Of a stretch of 64,000 nucleotides of DNA, positions 6,293 through 46,931 are shown piece by piece (within the stretch, counting starts at the first letter, position 1; each line of letters opens with the position of its first letter). Made by a program: the position numbers and the translations under genes. Location: the NCBI RefSeq assembly GCF_055900595.2, contig NZ_CM148325.1. One strand, given 5' to 3'. Below the pieces are notes generated by a model. The model ran no database searches and was not told where the DNA came from. It saw nothing but the letters and a program-made list of their open reading frames with translations.

Positions 6293-6769
6293 ATGAAACT
6301 CATTAGTAATGATCTGCGCGATGGCGATAAGCTGCCGCATCGCCATGTCTTTAACGGCATGGGTTACGATGGCGATAATATTTCGCCGCATCTGGCATGG
6401 GATGATGTTCCTGCGGGAACCAAAAGTTTTGTCGTCACCTGCTACGACCCGGATGCGCCAACTGGCTCTGGCTGGTGGCACTGGGTAGTTGTTAACTTAC
6501 CCGCTGATACCCGCGTATTACCGCAAGGGTTTGGCTCTGGTCTGGTAGCAATGCCAGACGGCGTTTTGCAGACGCGAACTGACTTTGGTAAAACCGGGTA
6601 CGATGGCGCAGCGCCGCCGAAGGGCGAAACTCATCGCTACATTTTTACCGTTCACGCGCTGGATGTAGAACGTATTGATGTCGATGAAGGTGCCAGTGGC
6701 GCGATGGTCGGGTTTAACGTCCATTTCCACTCTCTGGCAAGCGCCTCGATTACTGCGATGTTTAGTTAA
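6293..6769 (+). CDS. ybhB: PEBP/YbhB-family protein
   Basis: 158 aa, MKLISNDLRDGDKLPHRHVF...; located between bioA and the lambda attachment site as in K-12. Confidence 0.85.
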   Translation: MKLISNDLRDGDKLPHRHVFNGMGYDGDNISPHLAWDDVPAGTKSFVVTCYDPDAPTGSGWWHWVVVNLPADTRVLPQGFGSGLVAMPDGVLQTRTDFGKTGYDGAAPPKGETHRYIFTVHALDVERIDVDEGASGAMVGFNVHFHSLASASITAMFS

Positions 6770-7265: not shown

Positions 7266-7565
7266 CTACGATGCAAGAATCCATACCAATAAGCATCCGA
7301 TAATTGGGAAAGAAAAATCCAACAAACTTCCCACATCCCACACGCGTGGATCAAAACCTCCCCACCACGGCATGTTGACACGTTTCCCTTTCCCAAACTT
7401 TTCTATCCAGCGATATTCTGCCTGGGTGTGTTCACGCGCAATGAAGAACGTACAACCGGCTATCGCACCGTAAGCCCAGTTTCCGGTAAAAATACCAACC
7501 AGTACCTGAGCCGCAAAAGCGCAAAGCGAGTGAAGAAATGGAGTGACATCAATGCTCTTAATCAT
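7266..7565 (-). CDS. Small predicted inner-membrane protein, function unknown (accessory gene)
   Basis: 99 aa with hydrophobic segments ([27 protein letters not shown]); start overlaps the tailspike stop (ATGA); last gene before the att site. Confidence 0.5.
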
Positions 7566-9619
7566 GAAACTTCCCCATTGGTTGAAAATATGGCTCCTCC
7601 AACTCCAAGTGTATTTCGTGTTGTGCTCAACCTAAGAGGGCTGGAGTCAGAATTAGAATATCCTGTAGCAGAAATAAAAGATCCTCCACTAATAGTCAAC
7701 TGCGGAACATCGGCTATATCTGAATAAGTTCTGTCAGCAACAGTATTATTTATAGCCACATGTGATCCAAAAAAACTTCTTATTGTTTGGTTTTTAACTT
7801 TACTTCCTTCAATGGTTATCCTACTACCACAGTCAGCAATAAATCCTGAATCTGCATCCAGCGTTGCATTCATAAAAGAAGCTTCAGATCTCTCTACATC
7901 AATCCATCTAATATCTTTTGTGGGATTTGCACCAAATACATGACAAATATTAGAGTTAAACCTTACACCATCTTGGAGGTGCATTAATTTTTTTATATCT
8001 GTACCCCATAGCCTTGGAAAATTAACAGATGCTCCTGCATGGCAATCAAATCCCAGCTCAACCCCTGAGATATCTACAGCCTTTCCGGAAATAACAGCAC
8101 CAGTGTCTGCATTAACGGCTGTTCCACAATTGCGCATATCATTACCAGCAACATCAACACAACCCGCACCATCAATACGCACACCAAGTGCACATCCATA
8201 AAAACCTTTTTCAATATTTGGTTCAAGGACTTTACCACTTGTTTCTGCATCACTTTCTTCAACGTCATGTCGTCTTGCATCAACATATGCTGTATGAATG
8301 CACGTTAATCCACGATATGAGCAATGTATAGTTTTATGGTCGCGTATATTAACATTTGAACCATCTCTTACATTCCATCCTATATAACAATAGCTTGCAC
8401 TTGACCCCTGAAAATCTGCTTTAACATTATAAATACAATTAACTGACGCAACCGTACTCTCTGTGCACCGTTCAAACTTACTTACAGGCATTGATGCCTT
8501 GACATTATTTACCAGTTGCAGGGAAGAGTATCTGCTATAAGAAAAATCACATACGTAATACCCTTCTGGCATATATGCAGCAACACTTTCCTCATCAGGA
8601 GCACATCCGGTATGATATGCACTAATTTTTGCACCAAAACTACCATGAATTCCAACGTAGAACTTTCGAGCACCTGAATACGGATAGAAATTAAGTTCAG
8701 CTTTTTGAGTTACAATAAATGCACAAACATCGCTATCATCTCTATTTTCTTCAATCTGAATAGCAAATACAGGACTTTTTGCTGCATCGCAAATGTAAAA
8801 TAAATATTTGTATTCGTAATACGTCCTAACAGTTTTAGTAAACAAACTGGTATCAGAGAAAACCACTGAGTCTTCTGATATTATTTTAATCCATGATAAG
8901 TCACATCCTGCTGAAATTTCTATTTGCTCATTGAGCACAAAACCGGAAAGAATTTTAATTATGCAAAAATCAATGCCATTTTTCCATAGTGGACGCAGTG
9001 CAACAGCTGAGTTTAGAGCATCACTAATAGATTTAAAATTACCATATTCCCCAACTGTTATTGTGAATGCATACCTGGAATTAAATACTGCGGCACTCTC
9101 TCCAGAGTTAATAGCTGCAGATATCATGTCATAATTTGATATAAAATCATTTGGCGTGATTATTTCTGCGTTTTTATTGTGCTGTGTTCTAAGTTTTGAA
9201 TTTACATGAACACTTTTAACTGCAATACGGGAGTCGTCAACAAGTATTTCATTACCCTCTGTTGCTAACTCTTGTCTTAACTGATCCGGGTCATACTTCA
9301 GCACATTCGGAAAATAGAACTGCTGCACACCGTACGCATCATAAACAGCCATAGAATGGCCCTGTACAGTAACGAATTTGGCAATCTGTCCGTTATATAC
9401 CGGATATCCAGCAGCGTTAATGATGATTGGTTGCGAAACAGGAACGTGAGATCCATCTTCGTTCTCTACATAAACCTGAATCTGGTTTTCAGGATTTACA
9501 GGGGCAGTATCAATTTTACCGATATAAATTTTGCCATTGGCTACGGCTTTAAAAGAACGCGCCATAGTGAAGAGTTGCGAAGGCATACTCACTACAACAT
9601 TGGCTGTAATGTCTGTCAT
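7562..9619 (-). CDS. Tailspike protein with P22 gp9-like N-terminal head-binding domain and a different receptor-binding domain
   Basis: N-terminus [38 protein letters not shown]...VLKYDPDQ matches the P22 tailspike head-binding domain as I recall it; remaining ~570 aa unrelated to P22 endorhamnosidase. Confidence 0.85.
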
Positions 9620-9765: not shown

Positions 9766-10134
9766 ATGGGAAGAGATGACCCGCAATTTAATCTGCGGCT
9801 ACCTTACGAATTAAAGGAAAAACTAAAACAGCGAGCCAAATCCAATGGCCGCTCTCTTAATTCAGAATTAGTTCAGATAGTGACTGATGCTGTATCAAAG
9901 CCATCCAAAATTTCAGGCTATCGAGACGATGCGGAACGCATCGCTGATGAGCAGTCAGAGCTTGTTAAGAAGATGGTGTTTGATACGCTGAAGGATTTGT
10001 ACAAAAACCCACCTGATGGTGGGTTCCATTTATTAGTCTTGCTTTGTGGACGGTATAAGGGATGCATTTGCCTCTTTAGGCTTCAAGGTATACATCCCAC
10101 CATTAAATGGATCTACAGCAAGCCAACCAATTAA
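9766..10134 (+). CDS. mnt: Mnt-like ribbon-helix-helix repressor with ~40 aa C-terminal extension
   Basis: MGRDDPQFNLRLPYELKEKLKQRAKSNGRSLNSELVQIV...DAERIADEQSELVKKMVFDTLKDLYK closely follows P22 Mnt; ORF then continues antisense to the neighbouring lipoprotein gene. Confidence 0.75.
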   Translation: MGRDDPQFNLRLPYELKEKLKQRAKSNGRSLNSELVQIVTDAVSKPSKISGYRDDAERIADEQSELVKKMVFDTLKDLYKNPPDGGFHLLVLLCGRYKGCICLFRLQGIHPTIKWIYSKPTN

Positions 10135-10452
10135 CCCACCAAACACAAGGTTTCCACCAATATACCAACCATTAGCATTGGCTTTGATTGGCAGGGTAAC
10201 TGGTTCGTACCCATCCTTCTCCATAGTGATCTGGTAGCTCTTTTTGCCAAAATAACTACCATCTGACTTGGCAAGAGTTACTCCTTGCGGGGTCTTACCT
10301 TGCGCAACAATCACGCCTGATTCGTCTTTTACCTTAAAGCTCGCACCGGAAGGATTGCTGTTCACTTGCACAAGCTGTGTTTCGTCACCAACAATAGTTG
10401 CGCACCCAGATAACATGATAACGCCAGCAACGACGCCAATAATCCTCTTCAT
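10033..10452 (-). CDS. Lipoprotein with PEGA-like domain, function unknown
   Basis: MKRIIGVVAGVIMLSGC lipobox signal; VNSNPSGASFKVKDESGVIVAQGKTPQGVTL resembles the PEGA motif; convergent with mnt. Confidence 0.6.
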   Translation of the reverse strand: MKRIIGVVAGVIMLSGCATIVGDETQLVQVNSNPSGASFKVKDESGVIVAQGKTPQGVTLAKSDGSYFGKKSYQITMEKDGYEPVTLPIKANANGWYIGGNLVFGGLIGWLAVDPFNGGMYTLKPKEANASLIPSTKQD

Positions 10453-10569
10453 ATCAATTTCCATATTTAAAAAACCGGAAACATCCTAATGACAAACCAT
10501 TCAAATGTGAAGTAGGCAAAAGATGTTTACTTTTTTCATGGTATCCTGCTCAAAACTAAGGAGGTTGGC

Positions 10570-10959
10570 GTGAAGCAATTTCTTACTGCTATGTTCTTAT
10601 TCATATCTTTTGGGGCTACAGCAGAGTGCTGGGTCGTTGGAGATATGCGCGGAATAAGCTATTCAGAACGAAATAATTTCCATCCGGAAGAAGATGGTTT
10701 TAGTGGAACATTCATCATTAAGACAAACGGTGAAGATGCCAGCATCACATATTCTGGGACAGATGCGGGCGGCATGGCTTACAAAGCATTGTCTAAAAAC
10801 TCCATCATAGGAATCGGCGCGAATGGCGAAACTCAACGCGTTATCGACTCATGGGTAATACATCCTACTGGAACAGTTTTAATGTCAAAAACCATTTCCG
10901 GTTATGGAAATATGGATTCAACCAAAGCTTTTGTTGGAAAAGTAAAAAGAAAATGTTAG
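10570..10959 (+). CDS. Small secreted protein, family A/B paralogue 1
   Basis: GTG start after AAGGAGG; signal peptide MKQFLTAMFLFISFGATA then ECWVVGD...STKAFVGKVKRKC; shares motifs with the ORF at 36750-37154. Confidence 0.6.
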   Translation: MKQFLTAMFLFISFGATAECWVVGDMRGISYSERNNFHPEEDGFSGTFIIKTNGEDASITYSGTDAGGMAYKALSKNSIIGIGANGETQRVIDSWVIHPTGTVLMSKTISGYGNMDSTKAFVGKVKRKC

Positions 10960-10983: not shown

Positions 10984-12825
10984 TTACTGCTGTGTTGCCT
11001 CAGTAGCAAACAGCGGTCTGATGGCATTCGCAGCGTTATTTATCGCTCTTTCATAGGCTGGTGTTCCTGCTTTGGTGTTTGCCAAACGAAGAAGCATATT
11101 CCTTGCTGCTTTGGACTCATACAAGCGCATCATTGCACCAAAACCAGCCTCAATCCCCATTGATACGCCAAGGGTCGCAGTTGCGCCAATCGTCCTTATC
11201 CTGTTGGCTTGCGATTGCCCCGTCTGAGTTACTACATTTGCGGTGTCTGACCTTGCTGTTTGCTGTAGAACTTCATGAAGAGCATCAAGCTCTTTCATGT
11301 GCTTTCCAGAAAAAATAGTGTTGTAAATTTCACCGCCTGACTGAGATTTCAGCTTATTAACTTCAGTGATGAACTTGGCTGGAGAGTCCCCGGCCTTTTC
11401 CGCTATTTTGCTGACGTAAGCTGCACGCATAGCATCTTTCCCCTTATCATCCAGTGCGCTCCAGATTCGTTTCACGTCAGATGGTTTTCTGCTTAATACA
11501 ACGGTATTTATAAGTTCAGGACTGGCTTCACTGCTTGCCTTGTTGAGCTTGTTGGCAATGTTTTTATTAAGCACCTTATTATAAACGTTTGCATAATCGG
11601 AATTTGCTTTAAGGTATTTTGCTGCGTCTGATGCACCGAGGTTTTTAGCAACTGCGTTACGAAGGTCTTTTGACATTGCATTCTCTACCATATTGGTAGC
11701 TGCTTTTGCCTGGTTGGGGAAGACCATAGCATCTCCCTGAACATTAGATCTAAATGCTGTTCTGTGCTGACGCAAGAGATCAAACGTAACATCCAAATCA
11801 GTTGCAGGGTTTGCTAATTCTTCACGTAGGTTACGCAAGGATGTAAGCAGGCTTTGATTGGCAGACGTCCCAAGCCGTTCCTGTCTTGCGATCGCTGTAT
11901 TCAGAGCATTCATGGTATTTGTGGTATCAACTGCGGCATTACCCATTTTATTGGTGACGTCATTGATAACAGCGCCAGCGGCATCCTTCCGCCCCCTTAA
12001 CGTGGTGGTCAGAGATTTCACCACATCATCAGGGTTGTACTCACCAAAACGGTCAAAATAATTGCTTACCAGCTTACTCCGCGTTGCATATTGCTCTGCT
12101 CGCTTTGAGCCCGTCCCGAGCAAAGCCCCCTCGGCATCCTGAGTAAGGCCGCGAGTGAAAGCATTTTTCGGCGGGATAACATCAGATGTCATTGGTGTCA
12201 CGCCCATCGATTCTGATGTGGCAATTTTCTTCGCCACTTCTGGCGCAATATCACCTTTTATAGCCGTTATTCCACGCCCTATTCCCTTTGCTGCTGCGGA
12301 AAGAACACCCTGAGCGGCAAGGTTAACTCCGGCATTTTTAGCTGCATTTTGTGCGAAATCGCCTTTCTGATTTGCGGCCTCTGCCAGCGATCCAATAGCC
12401 ATGCTTCCTGCCGTTCCAACTCCTGGAACTAAATACCCACCAATTGTTTCACCGGCTTGTGCGTATGGGTCTGTCGGTTTGTCTACTGGACGATAAACAT
12501 CATCCAAAACTTTTGGCCCACCAAGCCCCTGACTGATTGCATTAATCAGACTTGCGCCACCCTGCAATACGTCAAATGGTATGTTTACCAGACCACGACC
12601 AGCCTGTTCTGCAATTTGCCCTGCACTTTGACCACCAGTGAGCCAATCGCCAGCTTGTTGCATCAATGATGGTTCTTCACGTACTGGTGCATTATTGGCC
12701 TGATTAACTGTTTGTTGCTGAACAACCTGACCAGCAAAATAATCATCAATGGCGGCTCCAATATCTTCCGTGCTCGTACCATCAGGGAAGGTAAATGTCT
12801 TACCGTTTGCAGTTACTTTCATCAT
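10984..12825 (-). CDS. Ejection (internal virion) protein, P22 gp16-like by size and position
   Basis: 613 aa, Gly/Ala-rich; last of three co-oriented genes after the tail genes, matching the P22 order 7-20-16. Confidence 0.6.
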
Positions 12826-14237
12826 TCCACCGTAAATTGAATGCCTGATTTTGAGGTATATGATCCAACCTGATTCCGTGGTTCTCCTGAAGGTGTCGAA
12901 TCTTGTGCTGGCGCTGCGTCAGTATTCATTGACATATACCGCTTAACGGCACTCCCCAATGATTCACCTTTTTTAACATCCAACCCCAATATCTGACCGC
13001 CATTACGCGATTGTCCAGGGTTGCCATTCGCGCTCATCCACTCGGCTTTAAACTCATTAAACTGCGCGTTTCGTCGCTCAAGGTTTGCCATTGCATCAAG
13101 CCATCTTGCTACCGTCTCAGGGTTATCCATGTCAGTTGGAGCACCCTGTCGAACGATCTCAACGTCTTTATCCGTTGCGGGGCCGGGAGGTAGGAATTTA
13201 AGAACCTGACTGTTAACAAGGGCATTTTGGCGGATGCGCAAATCACGCAATGTTGTATCGCTTCCGGTAAGTTTTGCGAACATGTTCTGTGCGTTACCGA
13301 ACAAACCTGTCGTTGGTTTTTCTGCTCTGAACTGTTGAGCAAGCGCACTCATAGAATTGGCTGAGTTTGATGATGCTGTAGCATTGTTTACAGCCGTCTC
13401 GATGCCTTTTTCCATGTTTACTGACAGCTTAGGTGCTTCGCTAATCAACTGCTGAGCCTTTTCCTGTGCTTGCTGCATCTTAAACCCGAACTCTTGCTGA
13501 TCCAGAGCCAAGCGTTGTGCTGCGATATTGTGCCCAGTCATTGCTGACTGATAGGAAAGGTTTTGCCCTCTCGCCTGAAGTGCTTCTCCAGCCTGATTGC
13601 TGCGGATTGTCTCTGCCAGTTTGCCTCGGTCAATTTCACGACCAGCCATCTTGTCCTGAACAGCAAACGCCTTTTCTGGTCCAAGCGCACCGAGAGACAT
13701 AGTAGTCAGCATGTGTGATAGCTGCTCTGGATTCTGGATACCTGTCTGAATCATCCAGTCAGCATTCGCCCCCACGCGATTTAACCTGTCCTTGTTGTCA
13801 GTAATGAATTTACTGTAGGCTTCCGGTCCCTGGGAAAGAGCGACGTTAGCCCTCATGGCTAAATCGCCCATATCGTTGCGTTGCTGCTCATTAAGACCGG
13901 AAAACGCCTGTTGTGCCTGTGCAACAAACGCTGGATTTTCCTGGGCAAACTTAAATAGTCCAGATGGATCACCAGAAGCCCATGCATCAGCGTGAACCTT
14001 ATTGAACGCACTAATAGCTTTCTGTTGCTGTTCCTGATTGTAAATATCAGCAACTCCAGCCAGACCACGTAACGCGGTCAGACCAATGTTATTTGCACCT
14101 GAGCGAGCCAGTTCATTGTTTTCGCGGATCAGACCAAGCGTTGCGTTAATGTCGCTTGCCTTTGGCGCATTCTCATTTTGCGTACCGATGCCAGCCAGAA
14201 AACCACCAGAATTAATACCCTGTTGCCACGTAGCCAT
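12822..14237 (-). CDS. Ejection protein, P22 gp20-like
   Basis: 471 aa (same length as P22 gp20 as I recall), overlapping stop/start with neighbours. Confidence 0.6.
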
Positions 14238-14247
14238 TGATTACCCC

Positions 14248-14940
14248 TTAAAACAACGAGCCAAGCAGACCAAGACCGCCGCCGATCGCAGCCCCCCACG
14301 GAGTTGATGAACCAATTAATTTCGCAAGTCCGGCCCCAGCAATAGCACCAGACGCACCTCCGCCAATAGCAGATTGCATTGCTGATGGTCTGTTGGCATT
14401 TGCCGCTGCAAGAGCCGCACTTTGCTGCGAAATCTGACTCATATTGTTGGCATATGTTTGCCCGGCGTTTGCCTGACCTTGCAGTGCGCCAAGACCAATA
14501 TTTGCCAGATTCTGGTAGTTGTTCATCTGACCAGATAGCCATTGCTGACCAAGCGTTGGTGCGATTGTTGCTAACTGATTACCGGTTGCAGTGGAACCCA
14601 ATCCACCTGTTGCTTCCGCTGCCGCCAGACTCTGATAGCGAGCCTGACCAGCAAGATCTTTGTACTGCTGAGAGTTGTAATACTGGTTAAGTGCCTGACC
14701 TTGCCCTTCCAGAGACGATAAGTTCTCGAGGCTGCCGACATACTTATCAGCCAGAGGAGTAAACGGCTTCAGGTTGTTCATGATGGTGTTGAACTGCTGA
14801 TTTTGCAGGTCTGCGGCATACTTCTGGGCTTCTGCGGCATACTTTGCGCTTTTATCAGAACTGCCACCTTTGCCGCCTTTTTCAGGGCACCAAGGTTCCT
14901 CGCCGCACAGTTTTCTGCCCAGCTTAAATGCATATAACAT
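14248..14940 (-). CDS. Ejection protein, P22 gp7-like
   Basis: 230 aa; Gln/Ala-rich middle and Gly-rich hydrophobic C-terminus; position after the gp14-like gene. Confidence 0.55.
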   Translation of the reverse strand: MLYAFKLGRKLCGEEPWCPEKGGKGGSSDKSAKYAAEAQKYAADLQNQQFNTIMNNLKPFTPLADKYVGSLENLSSLEGQGQALNQYYNSQQYKDLAGQARYQSLAAAEATGGLGSTATGNQLATIAPTLGQQWLSGQMNNYQNLANIGLGALQGQANAGQTYANNMSQISQQSAALAAANANRPSAMQSAIGGGASGAIAGAGLAKLIGSSTPWGAAIGGGLGLLGSLF

Positions 14941-14942
14941 GG

Positions 14943-15398
14943 CTATCTCCCGTGATTCAGGAAGTCGATTAGTTCTTCGCGTGTGGCGCTGTAAAAAGTC
15001 ACGTCATCCACGCCTTTAAAGTATTTCTTGATGGTTCCGACACGCTTAAGGCCAATCATTGCGCAGTAAATCTGCCCGTGGCGGAATTTGCGTGCGGCGA
15101 ACGATGTGACGCACTGAACGGTGGTGTTAGTCAGAATGTATCGCCAGAAAGCCAGCCCGATTTCCTTGCTGAAGCCGCGAATCTCTGGCAGGTACATGGC
15201 GTGGCAATCAAAGGTCAGCGGCTGAATCTCCTGATAGTAAACAATTCCGCCGAACTGCCCGTGCACGTTAACCTCAAAGTAACGGCATTCAGGTTTGTAG
15301 TCGTATCCATCACCGTTGTTGCTCCCGGCGATAATGTCAGGGTGATTTCCTACGGCTTCTATCAGGTCGATGTTTCGCGTTGGTTTGAATGTAATCAT
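14943..15398 (-). CDS. P22 gp14-like protein
   Basis: 151 aa ORF between the tail needle and ejection-protein genes, in the P22 order. Confidence 0.5.
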   Translation of the reverse strand: MITFKPTRNIDLIEAVGNHPDIIAGSNNGDGYDYKPECRYFEVNVHGQFGGIVYYQEIQPLTFDCHAMYLPEIRGFSKEIGLAFWRYILTNTTVQCVTSFAARKFRHGQIYCAMIGLKRVGTIKKYFKGVDDVTFYSATREELIDFLNHGR

Positions 15399-16099
15399 CA
15401 GTCAATCAGCCCATGTAATCTAAGTGCCGTTTCAAGCGCCAGAATACGCTGCCGCGCCTGCTGCAAACCTGTAGCGAGTGCTGCGACTTCGGATTGTGTG
15501 TACGTAGTGCCGACTGTGTATGACTGGTTAGCGTTGAATGAGCCAAGAAGAGGTGTACCTGTGGCTGCAGTCCATCCGGTATTTCTTGCTCCAATAACCT
15601 GAATTCCATCAACTGAATATGATGTTTTTACATCCAGCGGTGACGCAAGAGACTGCGATTCGGTTACGGTTTTCGATACGTAATCACTCTTAATGTCAGA
15701 TACATCGCTTTCTACGCCATCCAGTCTTTGGTCAACAGTGACCAGATGCGCCTGAATATCGATAACCTCATCCAGCAAGTAATCAACATCGCTACGCAGT
15801 ACGACTATCTTCCCTTCGGCGGTTGTTAACCTGACCTCAAGGAGATTTATCGCTTTTGTGTTTGCGGTGATTCTTGAATCGTGATCTGCCAGTTCGACGT
15901 CCTGTTCATCGTTTTTCACCTGAGCATCGTAAGCGCCCTGACCAGCCTGATTTGCCTTCCCGGCAATTGCGCCGACATCAGCCCCCTGATTAATGACATA
16001 CAGCAGGTAAGACTGGCTGAATATATTGCGTGGAAGGATTGATGTATCTAGTCGTGTAGCCTGAACCACAACAGGTGTATTGAGATTCGAATCAGCCAT
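15398..16099 (-). CDS. Tail needle protein (P22 gp26-like)
   Basis: 233 aa; [26 protein letters not shown]-terminus and ...[36 protein letters not shown]-terminus match the P22 gp26 trimeric coiled-coil needle. Confidence 0.85.
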
Positions 16100-17517
16100 T
16101 ACTCGATCCTTATCTGGCAGCCTGACAGAGTGACAGGTGACTTAGTGATAACACGCAATTTGAAGCCGACATTTTTCCTGATGCGCCCAACTCGCTTCCA
16201 CAAAACGCGTTTGTCGTAAACGAACGGTTCATTCTGCTCAATCATCTGCTCACGCCCGTAATTGATGCCGTCAGTGGTTGCAGAGAGAAAAAGGCGGTCA
16301 GCATACTGCGCAACTCCAGTTGACGATTCAACTTCAAGGTCGAAAACTCTGGCGTTATCCGCTTTGAACAACGGAGTAAACAGCAGGTGTTCCTGCTGCT
16401 TGTCGTACTGACTGCTGATATCGAACTGCAATTTCCCGGTCACCGATTCCAGCTTATCGCCGCACGTTATCTGATTTCCTTCGTAAATGAAGTCGATAGC
16501 GCGGTACACATCGTCATACAAGCCTGTTTTCAGTACACACCATTGCGGACCATTGGCGCTTGAAGATGCGTCGTACACGAGGACGTGACGCGGAAGGTGG
16601 ATAATCAGCAACTCATGAGCATCAAATCTCAGAGACTCCATCACACCATCAGCCAGTTCATCAGCAGTGTAGGAGCGTAGTATTTTCTCAATGCTCGCGC
16701 TGGCGATTGGTGATACCTGACCGGAGCCGATGATGTATACAGATGGCGCACCAGTTGCCGGATTGCTGATGAACGCATACGAATCAGCGAATGGCGTTTT
16801 GCAGTAAGTCCCGGCAATGCCTTTCTGCACCATCAGCGATGGCTGTGCGACATACAAAGCGGCACCAACGGTGGTTGCGCCAGTCAGGGAGAAATATTCA
16901 ATCGTCGATGAACCAAAGCAGACGATGAAGTCTCGCCATGTTCCGATGCCGATGATGCCGTCCGGCTGCGATTCTGCGCGATATTGTGCGCTGTAGCGGT
17001 CAGGATGTGATTCGTCTTCAAGGTCAGTGATAAACCATGAATCAGTGCCGTCTTTTGACCACGCATAACGGCCACGTAAGCGCGTAATGTCGCGGACTGA
17101 GCCTAACTCGTACTGTGTGAATCCGCTGTCTGTAGGCCAGTTTGAGACGGTTTTAACCGTGCCATCATAGCGATACTCGACCAGTTGACCATTAACGCCT
17201 ACCGCCTGTGATGTCCGACCATGCGCCATTGATACACGACCACTTCCGGCGACGTCACCGACTTCGCTTTCGCCTTTGTAGAGCTTGCCGCCACACACAC
17301 GATAAACAGCATTCTGCGCCATGTTGTACTCGACGCCGCGCGATACGCCGTTTACATCAGAGCGTTTGGCAATGCCCGGGAATGAGCGAAGATATCCGCT
17401 GCTGTTCAGGATTTCTTTGGGTGTAGCCAACATATTCACTGGCAGATAGTCGATATAGTCGGCGTTTCGAAAGTCTTTGCCGACACCTTTCATAAGCGGA
17501 AGTTGCTGAATCGGCAT
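16099..17517 (-). CDS. Tail hub protein (P22 gp10-like)
   Basis: 472 aa, same length and position as P22 gp10. Confidence 0.7.
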
Positions 17518-44246: not shown

Positions 44247-44465
44247 ATGTACTTGACACTTCAGGAGTGGAACGCACGCCAGCGACGCCCAAGAAGCCTT
44301 GAAACAGTTCGTCGATGGGTACGCGAGTGCAGGATATTCCCTCCTCCGGTTAAGGATGGAAGAGAGTATCTGTTCCACGAATCAGCGGTAAAGGTTGACT
44401 TAAATCGACCAGTAACAGGTAGCCTTTTGAAGAGGATCAGAAATGGGAAGAAGGCGAAGTCATGA
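44247..44465 (+). CDS. xis: Excisionase Xis
   Basis: 72 aa MYLTLQEWNARQRRPRSLETVRRWVRECRIFPPPVKDGREYLFHESAVKVDLNRP, lambda Xis. Confidence 0.92.
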   Translation: MYLTLQEWNARQRRPRSLETVRRWVRECRIFPPPVKDGREYLFHESAVKVDLNRPVTGSLLKRIRNGKKAKS

Positions 44466-45513
44466 GCGCCGGGATTTACCCCCTAACCTTTATATAAGAA
44501 ACAATGGATATTACTGCTACAGGGACCCAAGGACGGGTAAAGAGTTTGGATTAGGCAGAGACAGGCGAATCGCAATCACTGAAGCCATACAGGCCAACAT
44601 TGAGTTATTTTCAGGACACAAACACAAGCCTCTGACAGCGAGAATCAACAGTGATAATTCCGTTACGTTACATTCATGGCTTGATCGCTACGAAAAAATC
44701 CTGGCCAGCAGAGGAATCAAGCAGAAGACACTCATAAATTACATGAGCAAAATTAAAGCAATAAGGAGGGGTCTGCCTGATGCTCCACTTGAAGACATCA
44801 CCACAAAAGAAATTGCGGCAATGCTCAATGGATACATAGACGAGGGCAAGGCGGCGTCAGCCAAGTTAATCAGATCAACACTGAGCGATGGATTCCGAGA
44901 GGCAATAGCTGAAGGCCATATAACAACAAACCCTGTCGCTGCCACTCGCGCAGCAAAATCAGAGGTAAGGAGATCAAGACTTACGGCTGACGAATACCTG
45001 AAAATTTATCAAGCAGCAGAATCATCACCATGTTGGCTCAGACTTGCAATGGAACTGGCTGTTGTTACCGGGCAACGAGTTGGTGATTTATGCGAAATGA
45101 AGTGGTCTGATATCGTAGATGGATATCTTTATGTCGAGCAAAGCAAAACAGGCGTAAAAATTGCCATCCCAACAGCATTGCATGTTGATGCTCTCGGAAT
45201 ATCAATGAAGGAAACACTTGATAAATGCAAAGAGATTCTTGGCGGAGAAACCATAATTGCATCTACTCGTCGCGAACCGCTTTCATCCGGCACAGTATCA
45301 AGGTATTTTATGCGCGCACGAAAAGCATCAGGTCTTTCCTTCGAAGGGGATCCGCCTACCTTTCACGAGTTGCGCAGTTTGTCTGCAAGACTCTATGAGA
45401 AGCAGATAAGCGATAAGTTTGCTCAACATCTTCTCGGGCATAAGTCGGACACCATGGCATCACAGTATCGTGATGACAGAGGCAGGGAGTGGGACAAAAT
45501 TGAAATCAAATAA
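44443..45513 (+). CDS. int: Tyrosine integrase Int
   Basis: 356 aa MGRRRSHERRDLPPNLYIRNNGYYCYRDPRTGKEFGLGRDRRIAITEAIQAN...; overlaps xis; catalytic R/HxxR/Y region (HELRSL...Y); lambda Int. Confidence 0.95.
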   Translation: MGRRRSHERRDLPPNLYIRNNGYYCYRDPRTGKEFGLGRDRRIAITEAIQANIELFSGHKHKPLTARINSDNSVTLHSWLDRYEKILASRGIKQKTLINYMSKIKAIRRGLPDAPLEDITTKEIAAMLNGYIDEGKAASAKLIRSTLSDGFREAIAEGHITTNPVAATRAAKSEVRRSRLTADEYLKIYQAAESSPCWLRLAMELAVVTGQRVGDLCEMKWSDIVDGYLYVEQSKTGVKIAIPTALHVDALGISMKETLDKCKEILGGETIIASTRREPLSSGTVSRYFMRARKASGLSFEGDPPTFHELRSLSARLYEKQISDKFAQHLLGHKSDTMASQYRDDRGREWDKIEIK

Positions 45514-45647: not shown

Positions 45648-46931
45648 GTGAACACATTTTCAGTTTCCCGTCTGGCGCTGGCATTGGCTTTTGGCGTGAC
45701 GCTGACCGCCTGTAGCTCAACACCGCCCGATCAACGTCCTTCTGATCAAACCGCGCCTGGTACCTCTTCTCGCCCGATTCTGTCGGCAAAAGAAGCGCAG
45801 AATTTCGATGCTCAACACTATTTTGCGTCCCTGACGCCAGGTGCTGCAGCGTGGAATCCTTCCCCGATTACTCTGCCTGCGCAACCTGACTTTGTTGTCG
45901 GCCCGGCGGGTACTCCGGGTGTAACGCATACCACGATTCAGGCGGCGGTAGATGCGGCAATTATCAAGCGCACCAACAAGCGCCAGTATATTGCCGTGAT
46001 GCCTGGTGAGTATCAGGGAACGGTGTATGTCCCTGCTGCTCCGGGTGGAATTACTCTGTACGGTACAGGTGAAAAACCGATTGATGTGAAGATTGGGCTT
46101 TCCCTTGATGGGAGCATGAGCCCTGCCGACTGGCGTCACGACGTCAACCCGCGCGGCAAATATATGCCAGGTAAACCAGCGTGGTATATGTACGATAGCT
46201 GCCAGAGCAAACGCAGCGACAGTATCGGCGTTCTGTGTTCTGCGGTCTTCTGGTCACAAAACAACGGCCTGCAACTGCAAAACCTGACCATCGAAAACAC
46301 GCTGGGTGATAGCGTAGATGCGGGTAACCATCCGGCGGTGGCACTGCGTACTGATGGCGACAAAGTGCAGATCAATAACGTCAACATTCTCGGTCGTCAG
46401 AATACATTCTTTGTCACCAACAGTGGTGTGCAAAACCGTCTGGAAACCAACCGTCAGCCGCGTACTCTGGTGACCAACAGTTACATTGAAGGGGATGTGG
46501 ATATCGTTTCTGGTCGCGGCGCAGTGGTGTTCGATAATACCGAATTCCGCGTGGTGAACTCACGTACTCAGCAAGAAGCGTATGTGTTTGCACCGGCTAC
46601 GCTGTCTAACATCTATTACGGTTTCCTCGCCGTAAACAGCCGCTTCAATGCTTCCGGTGATGGCGTGGCGCAACTGGGCCGCTCGCTGGATGTTGATGCC
46701 AATACCAACGGTCAGGTGGTGATCCGTGATAGCGCCATCAACGAAGGTTTTAACACGGCTAAACCGTGGGCCGATGCGGTGATTTCCAATCGCCCGTTTG
46801 CGGGTAATACTGGCAACGTTGATGATAACGACGAAGTACAGCGTAATCTGAATGACACTAACTACAACCGCATGTGGGAATACAATAACCGCGGCGTGGG
46901 TAGCAAAGTGGTTGCAGAGGCGAAGAAGTAA
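45648..46931 (+). CDS. ybhC: Pectinesterase-family outer-membrane lipoprotein
   Basis: GTG start; MNTFSVSRLALALAFGVTLTACSS lipobox; 427 aa. Confidence 0.85.
   Translation: MNTFSVSRLALALAFGVTLTACSSTPPDQRPSDQTAPGTSSRPILSAKEAQNFDAQHYFASLTPGAAAWNPSPITLPAQPDFVVGPAGTPGVTHTTIQAAVDAAIIKRTNKRQYIAVMPGEYQGTVYVPAAPGGITLYGTGEKPIDVKIGLSLDGSMSPADWRHDVNPRGKYMPGKPAWYMYDSCQSKRSDSIGVLCSAVFWSQNNGLQLQNLTIENTLGDSVDAGNHPAVALRTDGDKVQINNVNILGRQNTFFVTNSGVQNRLETNRQPRTLVTNSYIEGDVDIVSGRGAVVFDNTEFRVVNSRTQQEAYVFAPATLSNIYYGFLAVNSRFNASGDGVAQLGRSLDVDANTNGQVVIRDSAINEGFNTAKPWADAVISNRPFAGNTGNVDDNDEVQRNLNDTNYNRMWEYNNRGVGSKVVAEAKK

What the first reader, a model, noticed from the sequence alone, without database searches (positions are those of the whole stretch)
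10033..10452. PEGA-like lipoprotein as candidate receptor-masking or exclusion factor
The ORF has a lipobox (LSGC) and a PEGA-like motif, and ends in a Gly-rich hydrophobic stretch. Prophage-encoded lipoproteins in other phages (e.g. T5 Llp, phi80 Cor) block receptors against superinfection. This one lies in a moron slot next to the tailspike.
Basis: inference. Interest (0 to 1): 0.55.

Follow-up and report, generated by a model that had tools for sequence, protein, structure and literature searches.

The report
Prophage outer-membrane lipoprotein, function unproven
This is a real, very conserved gene in a P22-like prophage for an outer-membrane lipoprotein made while the virus is dormant; it is already catalogued (phage epsilon34 gene 15) with no known function, and blocking other phages is plausible but untested.

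Summary
The ORF is real (window 10033-10452, minus strand, 139 aa). It is 99.3% identical to gene 15 of Salmonella phage epsilon34, listed as "conserved hypothetical" since 2008 (PHROG 6823).

**What holds up**
- The lipobox passes a PROSITE-style rule, and residue +2 is Ala, which predicts outer-membrane sorting.
- The PEGA call is weak by Pfam (E=0.031), but the predicted fold is transthyretin/PEGA-like.
- The Gly-rich hydrophobic stretch exists (residues 94-121). It is internal, not C-terminal, and looks interfacial rather than transmembrane.

**Context**
- The gene is a self-contained cassette with a promoter-like site and a terminator shared with mnt. It lies between the ejection-protein genes and mnt/tailspike.
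- Its neighbour is a swappable gene in the position that sieA holds in P22.
- In E. coli LF82, published RNA-seq shows the 98.6%-identical ortholog is the second most transcribed prophage gene after the repressor, in DMEM and in macrophages.
- The mature protein is identical in 58 of 75 viral contigs, despite roughly 48 different tailspike types (dN/dS 0.01).
- It belongs to a huge family of stand-alone cellular lipoproteins.

**Verdict**
Lipoprotein and moron: supported. O-antigen masking: unlikely. Exclusion at the entry step: the leading but untested guess (about 0.4). An envelope-fitness role is the main rival (about 0.3). Interest is moderate to low.

The parts
10033..10452 (-). CDS of the 139-aa lipoprotein precursor (epsilon34 gene-15 type, PHROG 6823); the stop codon TAA is at 10035-10033
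   Evidence: ORF list. 99.3% identical to epsilon34 gp15. PHROG 6823 at E=3e-86. dN/dS 0.012 against epsilon34.
10402..10452 (-). Signal peptide (residues 1-16, MKRIIGVVAGVIMLSG) and the lipobox Cys17 codon (10404-10402). Residue +2 is Ala and +3 is Thr.
   Evidence: PS51257-style rule met; +2 is Ala in nearly all relatives. Cys17 invariant. Outer-membrane sorting is inferred from the E. coli +2 rule (established knowledge).
10174..10380 (-). Transthyretin/PEGA-like beta-sandwich core (residues 25-93), including the P-S-G-A motif at 10342-10353 and the conserved loop L60-K72 at 10237-10275
10090..10173 (-). Conserved Gly/aromatic hydrophobic segment (residues 94-121, NGWYIGGNLVFGGLIGWLAVDPFNGGMY), proposed to dip into the membrane interface
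   Evidence: Lowest entropy of any region, 0.39 bits. Wimley-White interfacial free energy -7.3 kcal/mol for residues 95-113. Kyte-Doolittle hydropathy below transmembrane grade. AF2 pLDDT mostly below 50 between residues 99 and 115. No Pfam glycine-zipper match even at E<=10.
10060..10092 (-). Two final beta-strands (residues 121-131) that return to the sandwich; the variable tail (residues 132-139) follows
   Evidence: AF2 secondary structure E121-124 and E127-131; block pLDDT about 91 then 79.
10483..10511 (-). Sigma-70-like promoter candidate, TTCACA-17 nt-TAGGAT, ending about 30 nt upstream of the ATG
   Evidence: Consensus scan. The same register is found in 70 of 75 P22-like viral loci as TTCAC(A/G)-17-TA(G/A)GAT. 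A TA(G/A)GAT box also precedes the gene in a lambdoid locus (L107) and in Proteus prophages. This is consensus evidence only; the transcription start is not mapped.
10003..10025 (.). Bidirectional intrinsic terminator shared with mnt: hairpin AACCCACC-TGAT-GGTGGGTT at 10006-10025, followed by a T-run on the minus strand (10007-10003)
   Evidence: Terminator scan. The same element is annotated as a Rho-independent terminator after gene 15 in epsilon34.
10570..10959 (+). Divergently transcribed neighbour: a 129-aa protein with a predicted signal peptide (PHROG 2651, no Pfam match). It is one allele of a swappable cassette that sits where sieA sits in P22.
   Evidence: At least six cassette kinds are seen among 75 loci. 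P22 map.
9766..10134 (+). mnt (Arc/Mnt-family repressor). Here it is frameshifted by loss of one A in the run at 10003-10007, so the ORF runs to 122 aa and overlaps the 3' end of the lipoprotein gene.
   Evidence: Alignment with epsilon34, Gally and 720R6. PGAP marks it as a pseudogene in the identical strain EC332.
10984..12825 (-). gp16-type ejection (DNA transfer) protein gene; this is the upstream boundary of the accessory slot
   Evidence: Annotated as 'DNA transfer protein' in EC332 and related records.
7562..9619 (-). Tailspike gene (685 aa); this is the downstream boundary of the slot
   Evidence: Annotated as 'phage head-binding domain-containing protein' or tailspike in related records.

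Best explanation
**What it is (shown).** This is the epsilon34 gene-15-type moron of a P22-like (Lederbergvirus) prophage inserted between ybhB and ybhC. The cassette consists of a promoter-like site, a 139-codon gene and a bidirectional terminator shared with mnt. It lies between the ejection-protein genes and mnt/tailspike.

**The product (predicted).** It is a Lol-sorted outer-membrane lipoprotein. A lipidated Cys17 is followed by a conserved tether (ATIVGDxTQ). Next comes a transthyretin/PEGA-like beta-sandwich. A highly conserved aromatic/glycine loop appears built to sit in the membrane interface.

**Expression (shown for a 98.6%-identical ortholog).** It is transcribed from the repressed prophage at close to repressor level.

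**How it most likely works (inferred).** The conserved, probably membrane-facing side of the protein binds a conserved host outer-membrane component. This makes the lysogen refractory to incoming phages at a step after O-antigen binding. It could mask an outer-membrane protein used as a secondary receptor. Or it could obstruct the channel that ejection proteins or tape-measure proteins build through the outer membrane and periplasm. It does not mask the O-antigen receptor.
For: **Identity and anatomy**
- Identity to epsilon34 gp15 and cassette structure.
- Lipobox rule met and +2 Ala.
- Fold.
- Interfacial character and peak conservation of residues 94-121, 17-26 and 60-72.

**Prophage expression (PMC9928086 S1/S4 tables)**
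- LF82_139/GALLYPH_14 log2(fpkm+5) is 9.8-10.5 in DMEM, 11.0 in macrophages at 1 h and 9.4-9.5 at 6 h.
- The flanking injection-protein genes stay at 2.5-4.2.
- The C2 repressor is at 10.5-12.0.

**Position**
- In P22-like phages the gene is adjacent to the sieA-equivalent cassette.
- None of 75 lipoprotein-bearing loci has the SieA motif; the positive control worked.
- Relatives sit between the tail chaperone G/T genes and the tape-measure gene in E. coli ED1a-type prophages. That is exactly the HK97 gp15 exclusion-moron slot (PMC3594210).
- Other relatives sit just upstream of the tape-measure gene in Proteus prophages, and between gpI and gpJ in a Pseudescherichia prophage.
- The neighbouring cassette always encodes small exported or membrane proteins.

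**Selection**
- dN/dS is 0.012-0.05 in five of six pairwise comparisons, and 0.22 in the closest pair, which has few changes.
- The mature protein is identical in 58 of 75 loci. This fits a conserved host target.

**Precedent**
- HK97 gp15 itself derives from a host envelope protein, YebO.
Against: - No experiment on this protein or any relative was found.
- No PADLOC defence model matches.
- There is no homology to Cor beyond the signal peptide. The PHROG and Pfam scans returned no Llp- or Bor-type family. SieA's motif is absent.
- The family is overwhelmingly cellular: 5361 clusters at E<=1e-3. Members are stand-alone genes in ordinary chromosomal neighbourhoods.
- Chromosomal copies 67-82% identical exist in Enterobacter and Kluyvera, and another in Xenorhabdus, with every motif intact. 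There is thus no sign of phage-specific neofunctionalisation.
- Known injection blockers such as SieA are highly diversified: three types, under 30% identical. This protein is nearly invariant.
- Tail-region slots tolerate morons of many functions, so position is weak evidence.
- An in vivo CRISPRi screen of LF82 does not mention this gene.
Confidence: 0.4

Rival explanations
1. Envelope-fitness moron (works like Bor/Iss or SlyB/YfgH). The phage simply delivers a copy of a cellular outer-membrane lipoprotein. Its interfacial loop and sandwich stabilise or remodel the outer membrane. This would improve lysogen survival under host or environmental stress (serum, bile, detergents, macrophages), with no direct action on phages.
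For: - The family is huge and cellular, with stand-alone chromosomal members across phyla.
- Enterobacter, Kluyvera and Xenorhabdus carry it outside prophages.
- Phage and chromosomal copies keep the same motifs.
- The protein is near-invariant, like Bor.
- It is strongly expressed in DMEM and inside macrophages.
- The architecture (lipid anchor, Gly-rich hydrophobic element, beta domain) recalls the stress-protective lipoproteins SlyB and YfgH.
Against: - There is no homology to SlyB or YceK beyond the lipobox and no Pfam glycine-zipper hit.
- The 'macrophage induction' is measured against LB-stationary cells and mirrors rpsT (log2FC 3.84 versus 3.83). It probably reflects growth state, not stress.
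- The LF82 gut CRISPRi study reports no signal for this gene.
- The function of the cellular family is itself unknown.
Confidence: 0.3
2. Lytic-cycle helper. The gene has the same orientation as the late operon. Its product is made late in infection and protects progeny virions from wasteful adsorption or ejection on debris and vesicles (the second role proposed for T5 Llp), or it tunes lysis.
For: - It is on the same strand as the late genes in all phage contexts examined.
- It is adjacent to tail and ejection genes.
Against: - It is expressed at high level while the neighbouring late genes are silent.
- It has its own promoter-like site and terminator.
- Chromosomal non-phage copies exist.
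- The lysis genes lie elsewhere in the prophage.
Confidence: 0.08
3. Masking of the primary (O-antigen) receptor, or a tailspike-specific decoy.
For: The gene is close to the tailspike gene. P22-like phages commonly carry O-antigen-modifying conversion genes at this end of the genome.
Against: - The identical mature protein accompanies about 48 different tailspike clusters, in both Salmonella and E. coli phages.
- A 13-kDa protein predicted to sit on the periplasmic face cannot plausibly cover O-antigen.
- No enzymatic domain is detected.
Confidence: 0.03
4. Selectively neutral hitch-hiker with no function in the phage context.
For: No phenotype has been reported. GC content does not differ from the prophage average.
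Against: - dN/dS is about 0.01-0.05 in five of six comparisons.
- The mature protein is invariant in most of 75 viral contigs.
- The gene is retained in 125 of 5426 complete E. coli genomes.
- It is strongly transcribed.
Confidence: 0.04

Closest known systems
Salmonella phage epsilon34 gene 15 (ACF16641.1), equal to PHROG 6823 and to GALLYPH_14 / LF82_139 of E. coli LF82 prophage Gally
   Same: Same gene: 97.8-99.3% amino-acid identity. Same position between the gp16-type ejection gene and mnt, and the same terminator.
   Different: None of substance. Here mnt is frameshifted, arc and ant are absent, and the divergent neighbour is a different cassette. The published annotation is 'conserved hypothetical' (PMC2629481).
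Cor (phi80/N15/HK022) and Llp (T5): prophage or phage lipoproteins that inactivate the FhuA receptor
   Same: Small phage-encoded lipoproteins, predicted to be in the outer membrane, encoded near tail or receptor-binding genes and expressed to protect the cell.
   Different: No homology: the Cor PHROG matches only the signal peptide (residues 1-20, E=0.004). P22-like phages do not use FhuA. Unlike those phage-specific proteins (from memory; not checked here), this one has thousands of cellular relatives.
HK97 gp15 (moron between the tail chaperone and tape-measure genes; inner-membrane exclusion protein derived from host YebO)
   Same: Relatives of this lipoprotein occupy exactly that slot in E. 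coli ED1a-type prophages (PMC3594210). Both are host-derived envelope proteins carried as self-contained morons.
   Different: HK97 gp15 is a small inner-membrane protein that has diverged from YebO. This one is a lipoprotein with a beta-sandwich, and it is barely diverged from its chromosomal relatives.
P22 SieA (inner-membrane protein that blocks the ejection-protein conduit)
   Same: Same accessory region. SieA and the lipoprotein cassette did not co-occur in 75 loci.
   Different: SieA is a multi-pass inner-membrane protein with the motif FxRYPxEAxxFNK, and it exists as three highly divergent types. Positionally, sieA corresponds to the variable minus-strand neighbour, not to the lipoprotein gene.
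Lambda Bor / Iss (prophage outer-membrane lipoprotein, serum resistance)
   Same: A highly conserved prophage-expressed outer-membrane lipoprotein moron.
   Different: No sequence relationship was detected by the PHROG, Pfam or NCBIfam scans. The fold was not compared.
SlyB / YfgH (glycine-zipper outer-membrane lipoproteins that stabilise the membrane under stress)
   Same: A lipid anchor plus a Gly-rich hydrophobic element plus a small beta domain. The outer-membrane location is predicted.
   Different: hhalign aligns only the lipobox (1% probability). No Pfam glycine-zipper hit. The hydrophobic element here is a single stretch of about 25 residues, interfacial rather than a two-helix transmembrane hairpin. 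A tandem-trimer model gave no confident oligomer.

Membership tests
Bacterial lipoproteins (SPase II substrates, PROSITE PS51257-type) | N-terminal K/R, an uncharged hydrophobic region, lipobox [LVI..][ASTG..][GAS]-C, with Cys at position 15-35 | tested here: met
   MKRIIGVVAGVIMLSG-C17 passes the rule, as do 111 of 120 close and 124 of 150 distant relatives. The Cys is invariant.
Bacterial lipoproteins (SPase II substrates, PROSITE PS51257-type) | Actual acylation, and outer-membrane localisation via Lol | not testable with these tools
   Only the +2 Ala / +3 Thr sorting rule can be applied. This needs globomycin or palmitate labelling and fractionation.
Pfam PEGA domain (PF08308) | HMM match above the family threshold | tested here: not met
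   Independent E-value 0.031, 14.6 bits, residues 28-93.
Pfam PEGA domain (PF08308) | Transthyretin/prealbumin-like beta-sandwich fold with a P-x-G-A motif | tested here: met
PHROG 6823 / epsilon34 gp15 family | Full-length profile match | tested here: met
   E=3.1e-86, residues 1-139 aligned to profile positions 1-139. 99.3% identity to epsilon34 gp15.
Moron (Juhala/Hendrix definition) | Own promoter and terminator flanking the gene | tested here: inconclusive
   The terminator hairpin is clear and is annotated in epsilon34. The promoter is a 9/12 consensus match, conserved in register in 70 of 75 loci. The transcription start is not mapped.
Moron (Juhala/Hendrix definition) | Expressed from the repressed prophage, independently of neighbouring late genes | tested here: met
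   This is published RNA-seq for the 98.6%-identical LF82 ortholog, not for this strain. Its log2(fpkm+5) is 9.4-11.0 versus 2.5-4.2 for the adjacent injection genes.
Moron (Juhala/Hendrix definition) | Present in some but absent from closely related phages | tested here: met
   P22 has sieA and orf59a instead. Only 4 of 50,697 phage records carry the gene.
Moron (Juhala/Hendrix definition) | Base composition different from the surrounding genome | tested here: not met
   GC is 45.2% versus 47.2% for the prophage.
Cor superinfection-exclusion lipoproteins (PHROG 1119) | Profile match over the mature protein | tested here: not met
   Only residues 1-20 (the signal peptide) match, E=0.0044.
SieA | Multi-pass inner-membrane protein with the motif FxRYPxEAxxFNK | tested here: not met
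   No transmembrane-grade segment beyond the signal peptide. The motif is absent from the window and from 75 related loci; P22 served as positive control.
Glycine-zipper outer-membrane lipoproteins (SlyB/YfgH; Pfam Gly-zipper families) | Profile match, or a two-helix GxxxG transmembrane hairpin | tested here: not met
   No Pfam hit even at E<=10. hhalign against SlyB aligns 11 lipobox columns at 1% probability.
YceK/YidQ (DUF1375) lipoproteins (the label JGI gives some relatives) | Profile similarity beyond the signal peptide | tested here: not met
   hhalign aligns 15 columns around the lipobox only, at 44% probability.
Known anti-phage defence systems (PADLOC-DB 2.0) | Match to any defence-protein model | tested here: not met
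   No family at E<=1.

The most novel reading that the evidence does not exclude
The phage-borne members of this PEGA-lipoprotein family would be a previously unrecognised, general injection-stage exclusion device. They would sit at the inner face of the outer membrane. They would block both podovirus ejection-protein conduits and siphovirus tape-measure channels by holding a conserved host component. The thousands of uncharacterised cellular relatives would then act on that same outer-membrane component.
Probability: 0.15. Interest if true: 0.7.

Novelty: new member of a known kind. Interest (0 to 1): 0.38.

Why it matters
- About two thirds of sequenced P22-like phages lack sieA (PMC10883804), and what protects their lysogens is unknown.
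- This gene is a cheap, well-defined candidate. It is 420 bp long and present in 125 of 5426 complete E. coli genomes.
- It is also found in Salmonella phage epsilon34 and in prophage Gally of the Crohn's-associated strain LF82. There it is the second most transcribed prophage gene in DMEM and in macrophages, although that prophage was reported to carry no moron.
- It would also give a first functional handle on a very large family of uncharacterised outer-membrane lipoproteins. That family spans Proteobacteria, Bacteroidota and other phyla.
- If it does nothing to phages, it is one more conserved lysogenic-conversion lipoprotein of unknown benefit.

Tried and rejected
- **Homo-oligomer test.** I modelled three mature domains in tandem with Gly-Ser linkers and an 18-row paired alignment. 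The result was poor (pLDDT 46.5, pTM 0.29), and the Gly-rich segment was even less confident. This is inconclusive and gives no support for a SlyB-like ring.
- **SlyB and YceK leads.** Only the lipobox aligns. Rejected as homologues.
- **Cor.** The match is to the signal peptide only. Rejected.
- **PADLOC, NCBIfam and Rfam.** PADLOC gave nothing and Rfam gave nothing useful. NCBIfam gave only a weak LEPBI_I2678 hit over residues 68-133, at 23 bits against a cutoff of 240.
- **Conserved operon partner in cellular relatives.** None was found; the genes are stand-alone in unrelated neighbourhoods.
- **Compositional anomaly.** None.
- **Literature.** No paper holds the accession numbers or describes a function for a PEGA lipoprotein of this type.
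- **Macrophage-specific induction.** Considered and set aside, because the fold change equals that of rpsT against the LB-stationary reference.
Full report
**1. Observation**

The window has an ORF on the minus strand at 10033..10464. The conserved start is the ATG at 10452, giving MKRIIGVVAGVIMLSGC.... Gally-type copies lack the upstream ATG, and relatives are 137-139 aa.

- The N-terminus satisfies a PROSITE PS51257-style lipoprotein rule, as do 111 of 120 close and 124 of 150 distant relatives. Residue +2 is Ala almost everywhere.
- P34-S-G-A37 is the "PEGA-like" motif. Pfam PEGA matches only at E=0.031.
- The Gly-rich hydrophobic stretch is real (residues 94-121) but internal, because 20 residues follow it.
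- The gene is under strong purifying selection. Against epsilon34 there are 21 synonymous changes and 1 non-synonymous change, the latter in the signal peptide, giving dN/dS 0.012.

**2. What and where it is**

The protein is 99.3% identical to gp15 of Salmonella phage epsilon34. It is 98.6% and 97.8% identical to proteins of Escherichia phages Gally and vB_EcoP-720R6. It matches PHROG 6823, "unknown function", at E=3e-86. [quoted passage not shown]

The window holds a P22-like prophage between ybhB and ybhC, the lambda attachment region. It is 100% identical over the query to E. coli EC332 from chicken meat.

The local order is: gp7, gp20 and gp16 ejection genes; a divergent 129-aa exported protein; the lipoprotein; mnt; the tailspike.

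- A TTCACA-17-TAGGAT promoter-like site lies about 30 nt upstream of the ATG.
- It keeps its register in 70 of 75 related viral loci. A TA(G/A)GAT box also travels with the gene into lambdoid and Proteus prophage contexts.
- A bidirectional hairpin terminator is shared with mnt. It is annotated as Rho-independent in epsilon34.
- GC content is not anomalous.

**3. Family**

A word-indexed search found 726 relatives in Enterobacterales. A profile search of 1.84 billion cluster representatives found 5361 at E<=1e-3 and 2005 at E<=1e-10. Foldseek against AFDB50 gave 598 hits at E<=1e-3. The top 50 listed are almost all named "PEGA domain-containing protein" or "Lipoprotein". They come from Enterobacterales, Pseudomonas, Neisseria, Acinetobacter, Bacteroidota and Desulfobacterota.

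- Distant members are stand-alone genes in ordinary chromosomal neighbourhoods, with no conserved partner.
- Within Enterobacterales the gene is in phages in four different slots:
  - the P22-like slot;
  - between the tail chaperone G/T genes and the tape-measure gene in E. coli ED1a-type prophages;
  - just upstream of the tape-measure gene in Proteus prophages;
  - between gpI and gpJ in a Pseudescherichia prophage.
- It is chromosomal and non-phage in Enterobacter (82% identity), Xenorhabdus and Kluyvera. It lies at a prophage-adjacent site in Kosakonia and in an apparent prophage remnant elsewhere.
- 125 of 5426 complete E. coli genomes carry the P22-type copy; 5 carry the lambdoid-type copy.

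**4. Structure**

AlphaFold2 with a 40-sequence alignment gives mean pLDDT 77.

- A confident beta-sandwich covers residues 25-93.
- A low-confidence helical excursion covers residues 95-118.
- Two confident strands (residues 121-131) return to the sandwich.

The Gly/aromatic segment is not transmembrane grade by Kyte-Doolittle. It has a Wimley-White interfacial free energy of -7.3 kcal/mol. It is the most conserved region of the family, followed by the post-Cys tether (residues 17-26) and the loop at residues 60-72.

From the up-down strand order I infer that these three conserved elements lie at the same end of the sandwich, the end nearest the membrane. This is inference only; I could not inspect coordinates. 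A tandem-trimer model gave no confident oligomer.

**5. Expression**

The LF82 study (PMC9928086) concluded that prophage Gally carries no moron, using LB-stationary data only. Its own tables show otherwise.

| Gene | LB stationary | DMEM | Macrophage 1 h | Macrophage 6 h |
|---|---|---|---|---|
| LF82_139 (GALLYPH_14, 98.6% identical) | 6.2 / 4.8 | 9.8-10.5 | 11.0 | 9.4-9.5 |
| Adjacent injection-protein genes | 3.4-4.1 | 2.5-3.7 | 2.3-4.0 | 2.5-4.2 |
| C2 repressor | 9.9 / 8.9 | 10.5-11.0 | 12.0 | 11.2-11.3 |

Values are log2(fpkm+5). In LB stationary phase LF82_139 was 3.3 times the prophage median, just under the authors' 5-fold cut-off.

The gene is therefore autonomously and strongly transcribed in lysogens. 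The reported "induction in macrophages" (log2FC 3.84) equals that of rpsT (3.83). I therefore read it as a growth-state effect relative to stationary cells, not as a macrophage-specific response.

**6. Associations**

IMG/VR holds 110 viral loci with the gene. Of the 80 retrieved, 75 are the P22-like type.

- In 58 of 75 the mature protein is identical; the rest differ by one to three substitutions.
- Downstream tailspikes fall into about 48 clusters, and gp16 ejection proteins into three main types.
- The divergent neighbour is a swappable cassette of at least six kinds, five of which look exported or membrane-bound (the sixth, an 80-aa ORF, is probably spurious):
  - a 129-aa secreted protein (this window);
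  - a 171-aa lipoprotein (Gally);
  - two proteins with a transmembrane segment plus coiled coil (the epsilon34 gp14/hkcB type);
  - membrane proteins of 62 and 75 aa.
- In P22 the gene in that exact position and orientation is sieA.
- None of the 75 lipoprotein loci has the SieA motif. The P22 positive control worked.

**7. Mechanism**

*Shown or strongly predicted:* this is a lipoprotein that is probably outer-membrane sorted. It has a small sandwich and a conserved interfacial face. It is made in lysogens, is under tight constraint, and is independent of tailspike and ejection-protein type.

This points to a conserved host envelope component as its partner, and it makes O-antigen masking very unlikely.

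*Inferred:* what the lysogen gains.

- I favour phage exclusion after O-antigen binding, either by masking an outer-membrane protein or by obstructing the injection conduit (about 0.4).
  - The gene sits beside the sieA-equivalent cassette.
  - Relatives occupy the HK97 gp15 exclusion slot (PMC3594210).
  - Host-derived envelope proteins have been turned into exclusion factors before.
- The main rival is an envelope-fitness role inherited unchanged from the cellular family (about 0.3). It is supported by the chromosomal copies and by the lack of any phage-specific divergence.
- A lytic-cycle role and neutrality are unlikely.

**8. Comparison with known systems**

- It is the same gene as epsilon34 gp15.
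- It would work like Cor, Llp or HK97 gp15 if it excludes phages, but it is not a member of those families. Cor matches only the signal peptide.
- It is not SieA.
- It is not a glycine-zipper lipoprotein and not YceK.
- No PADLOC model matches.
- It is a borderline Pfam PEGA member by sequence, and PEGA/transthyretin-like by fold.

**9. Verdict**

The lipoprotein and moron parts of the interpretation are supported. The receptor-masking or exclusion function is neither shown nor excluded, and O-antigen masking is disfavoured.

The gene is already catalogued without function. Its interest lies in being a compact and directly testable candidate, and in being a handle on a very large uncharacterised lipoprotein family.

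Noticed in passing
window 9766-10134 (+); A-run at 10003-10007: mnt has lost one A from an A6 run that is present in epsilon34, Gally and 720R6. The reading frame therefore runs on to 122 aa instead of 83 and overlaps the lipoprotein gene's 3' end. PGAP flags it as a pseudogene in the identical strain EC332. There is no arc or ant here, so Mnt's usual target is missing. The same deletion shortens the T-run of the shared terminator from 6 to 5.
   Followed up: partly
window 10570-10959 (+) and the equivalent position in L031-L105: The gene transcribed divergently from the lipoprotein is a swappable cassette with at least six unrelated alleles. Five look like small exported or membrane proteins; the 80-aa one is probably a spurious ORF. 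A conserved intergenic region of 104-118 bp separates it from the lipoprotein gene. In P22 this position holds sieA. It looks like a hotspot for envelope-acting accessory genes and deserves its own study.
   Followed up: partly
PMC9928086 S1/S4 tables, genes LF82_138 and LF82_139 (orthologous position to window 10033-10959): The LF82 paper states that prophage Gally has no morons. Its own RNA-seq shows LF82_139 (the lipoprotein) and LF82_138 (a second lipoprotein, PHROG 6067) far above all other non-repressor genes in DMEM and in macrophages. In LB stationary phase they fall just under the 5-fold cut-off.
   Followed up: yes
window 7266-7565 (-): A 99-aa hydrophobic, probably membrane, protein (PHROG 1443, unknown function) lies directly after the tailspike at the prophage end. 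The gene in this position in Gally (GALLYPH_17; homology not checked) rises from about 4 to about 8.5 log2 units in macrophages. It may be another moron.
   Followed up: partly
window 7562-9619 (-): The tailspike gene has very low GC (38%, GC3 0.25) compared with the prophage average (47%). This suggests a recently imported receptor-binding module.
   Followed up: no
window about 6900-45600; integrase at 44443-45513; ybhB at 6293-6769; ybhC at 45648-46931: This P22-like prophage sits at the lambda attachment region between ybhB and ybhC. The closely related Gally prophage of LF82 sits at torS/torT instead. The late and accessory module is the same, but the integration module differs.
   Followed up: partly
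L004-L009 (E. coli ED1a-type prophage), locus coordinates about 12260-16390: The lambdoid prophage that carries the 69%-identical lipoprotein also has a porin gene inserted between the gpM and gpL tail genes. Further along, inside the tail region, it has a ClpP-like protease and Arc-family and Ant-type genes. That is an unusually moron-rich tail operon.
   Followed up: no
window 10453-10482 (-) and L107 upstream region: The stretch from the -10 box into the 5' UTR (TAGGATGTTTCYGATT) is conserved between P22-like and lambdoid copies of the gene, although the flanks are otherwise unrelated. It could be a regulatory element. It was not analysed further.
   Followed up: no
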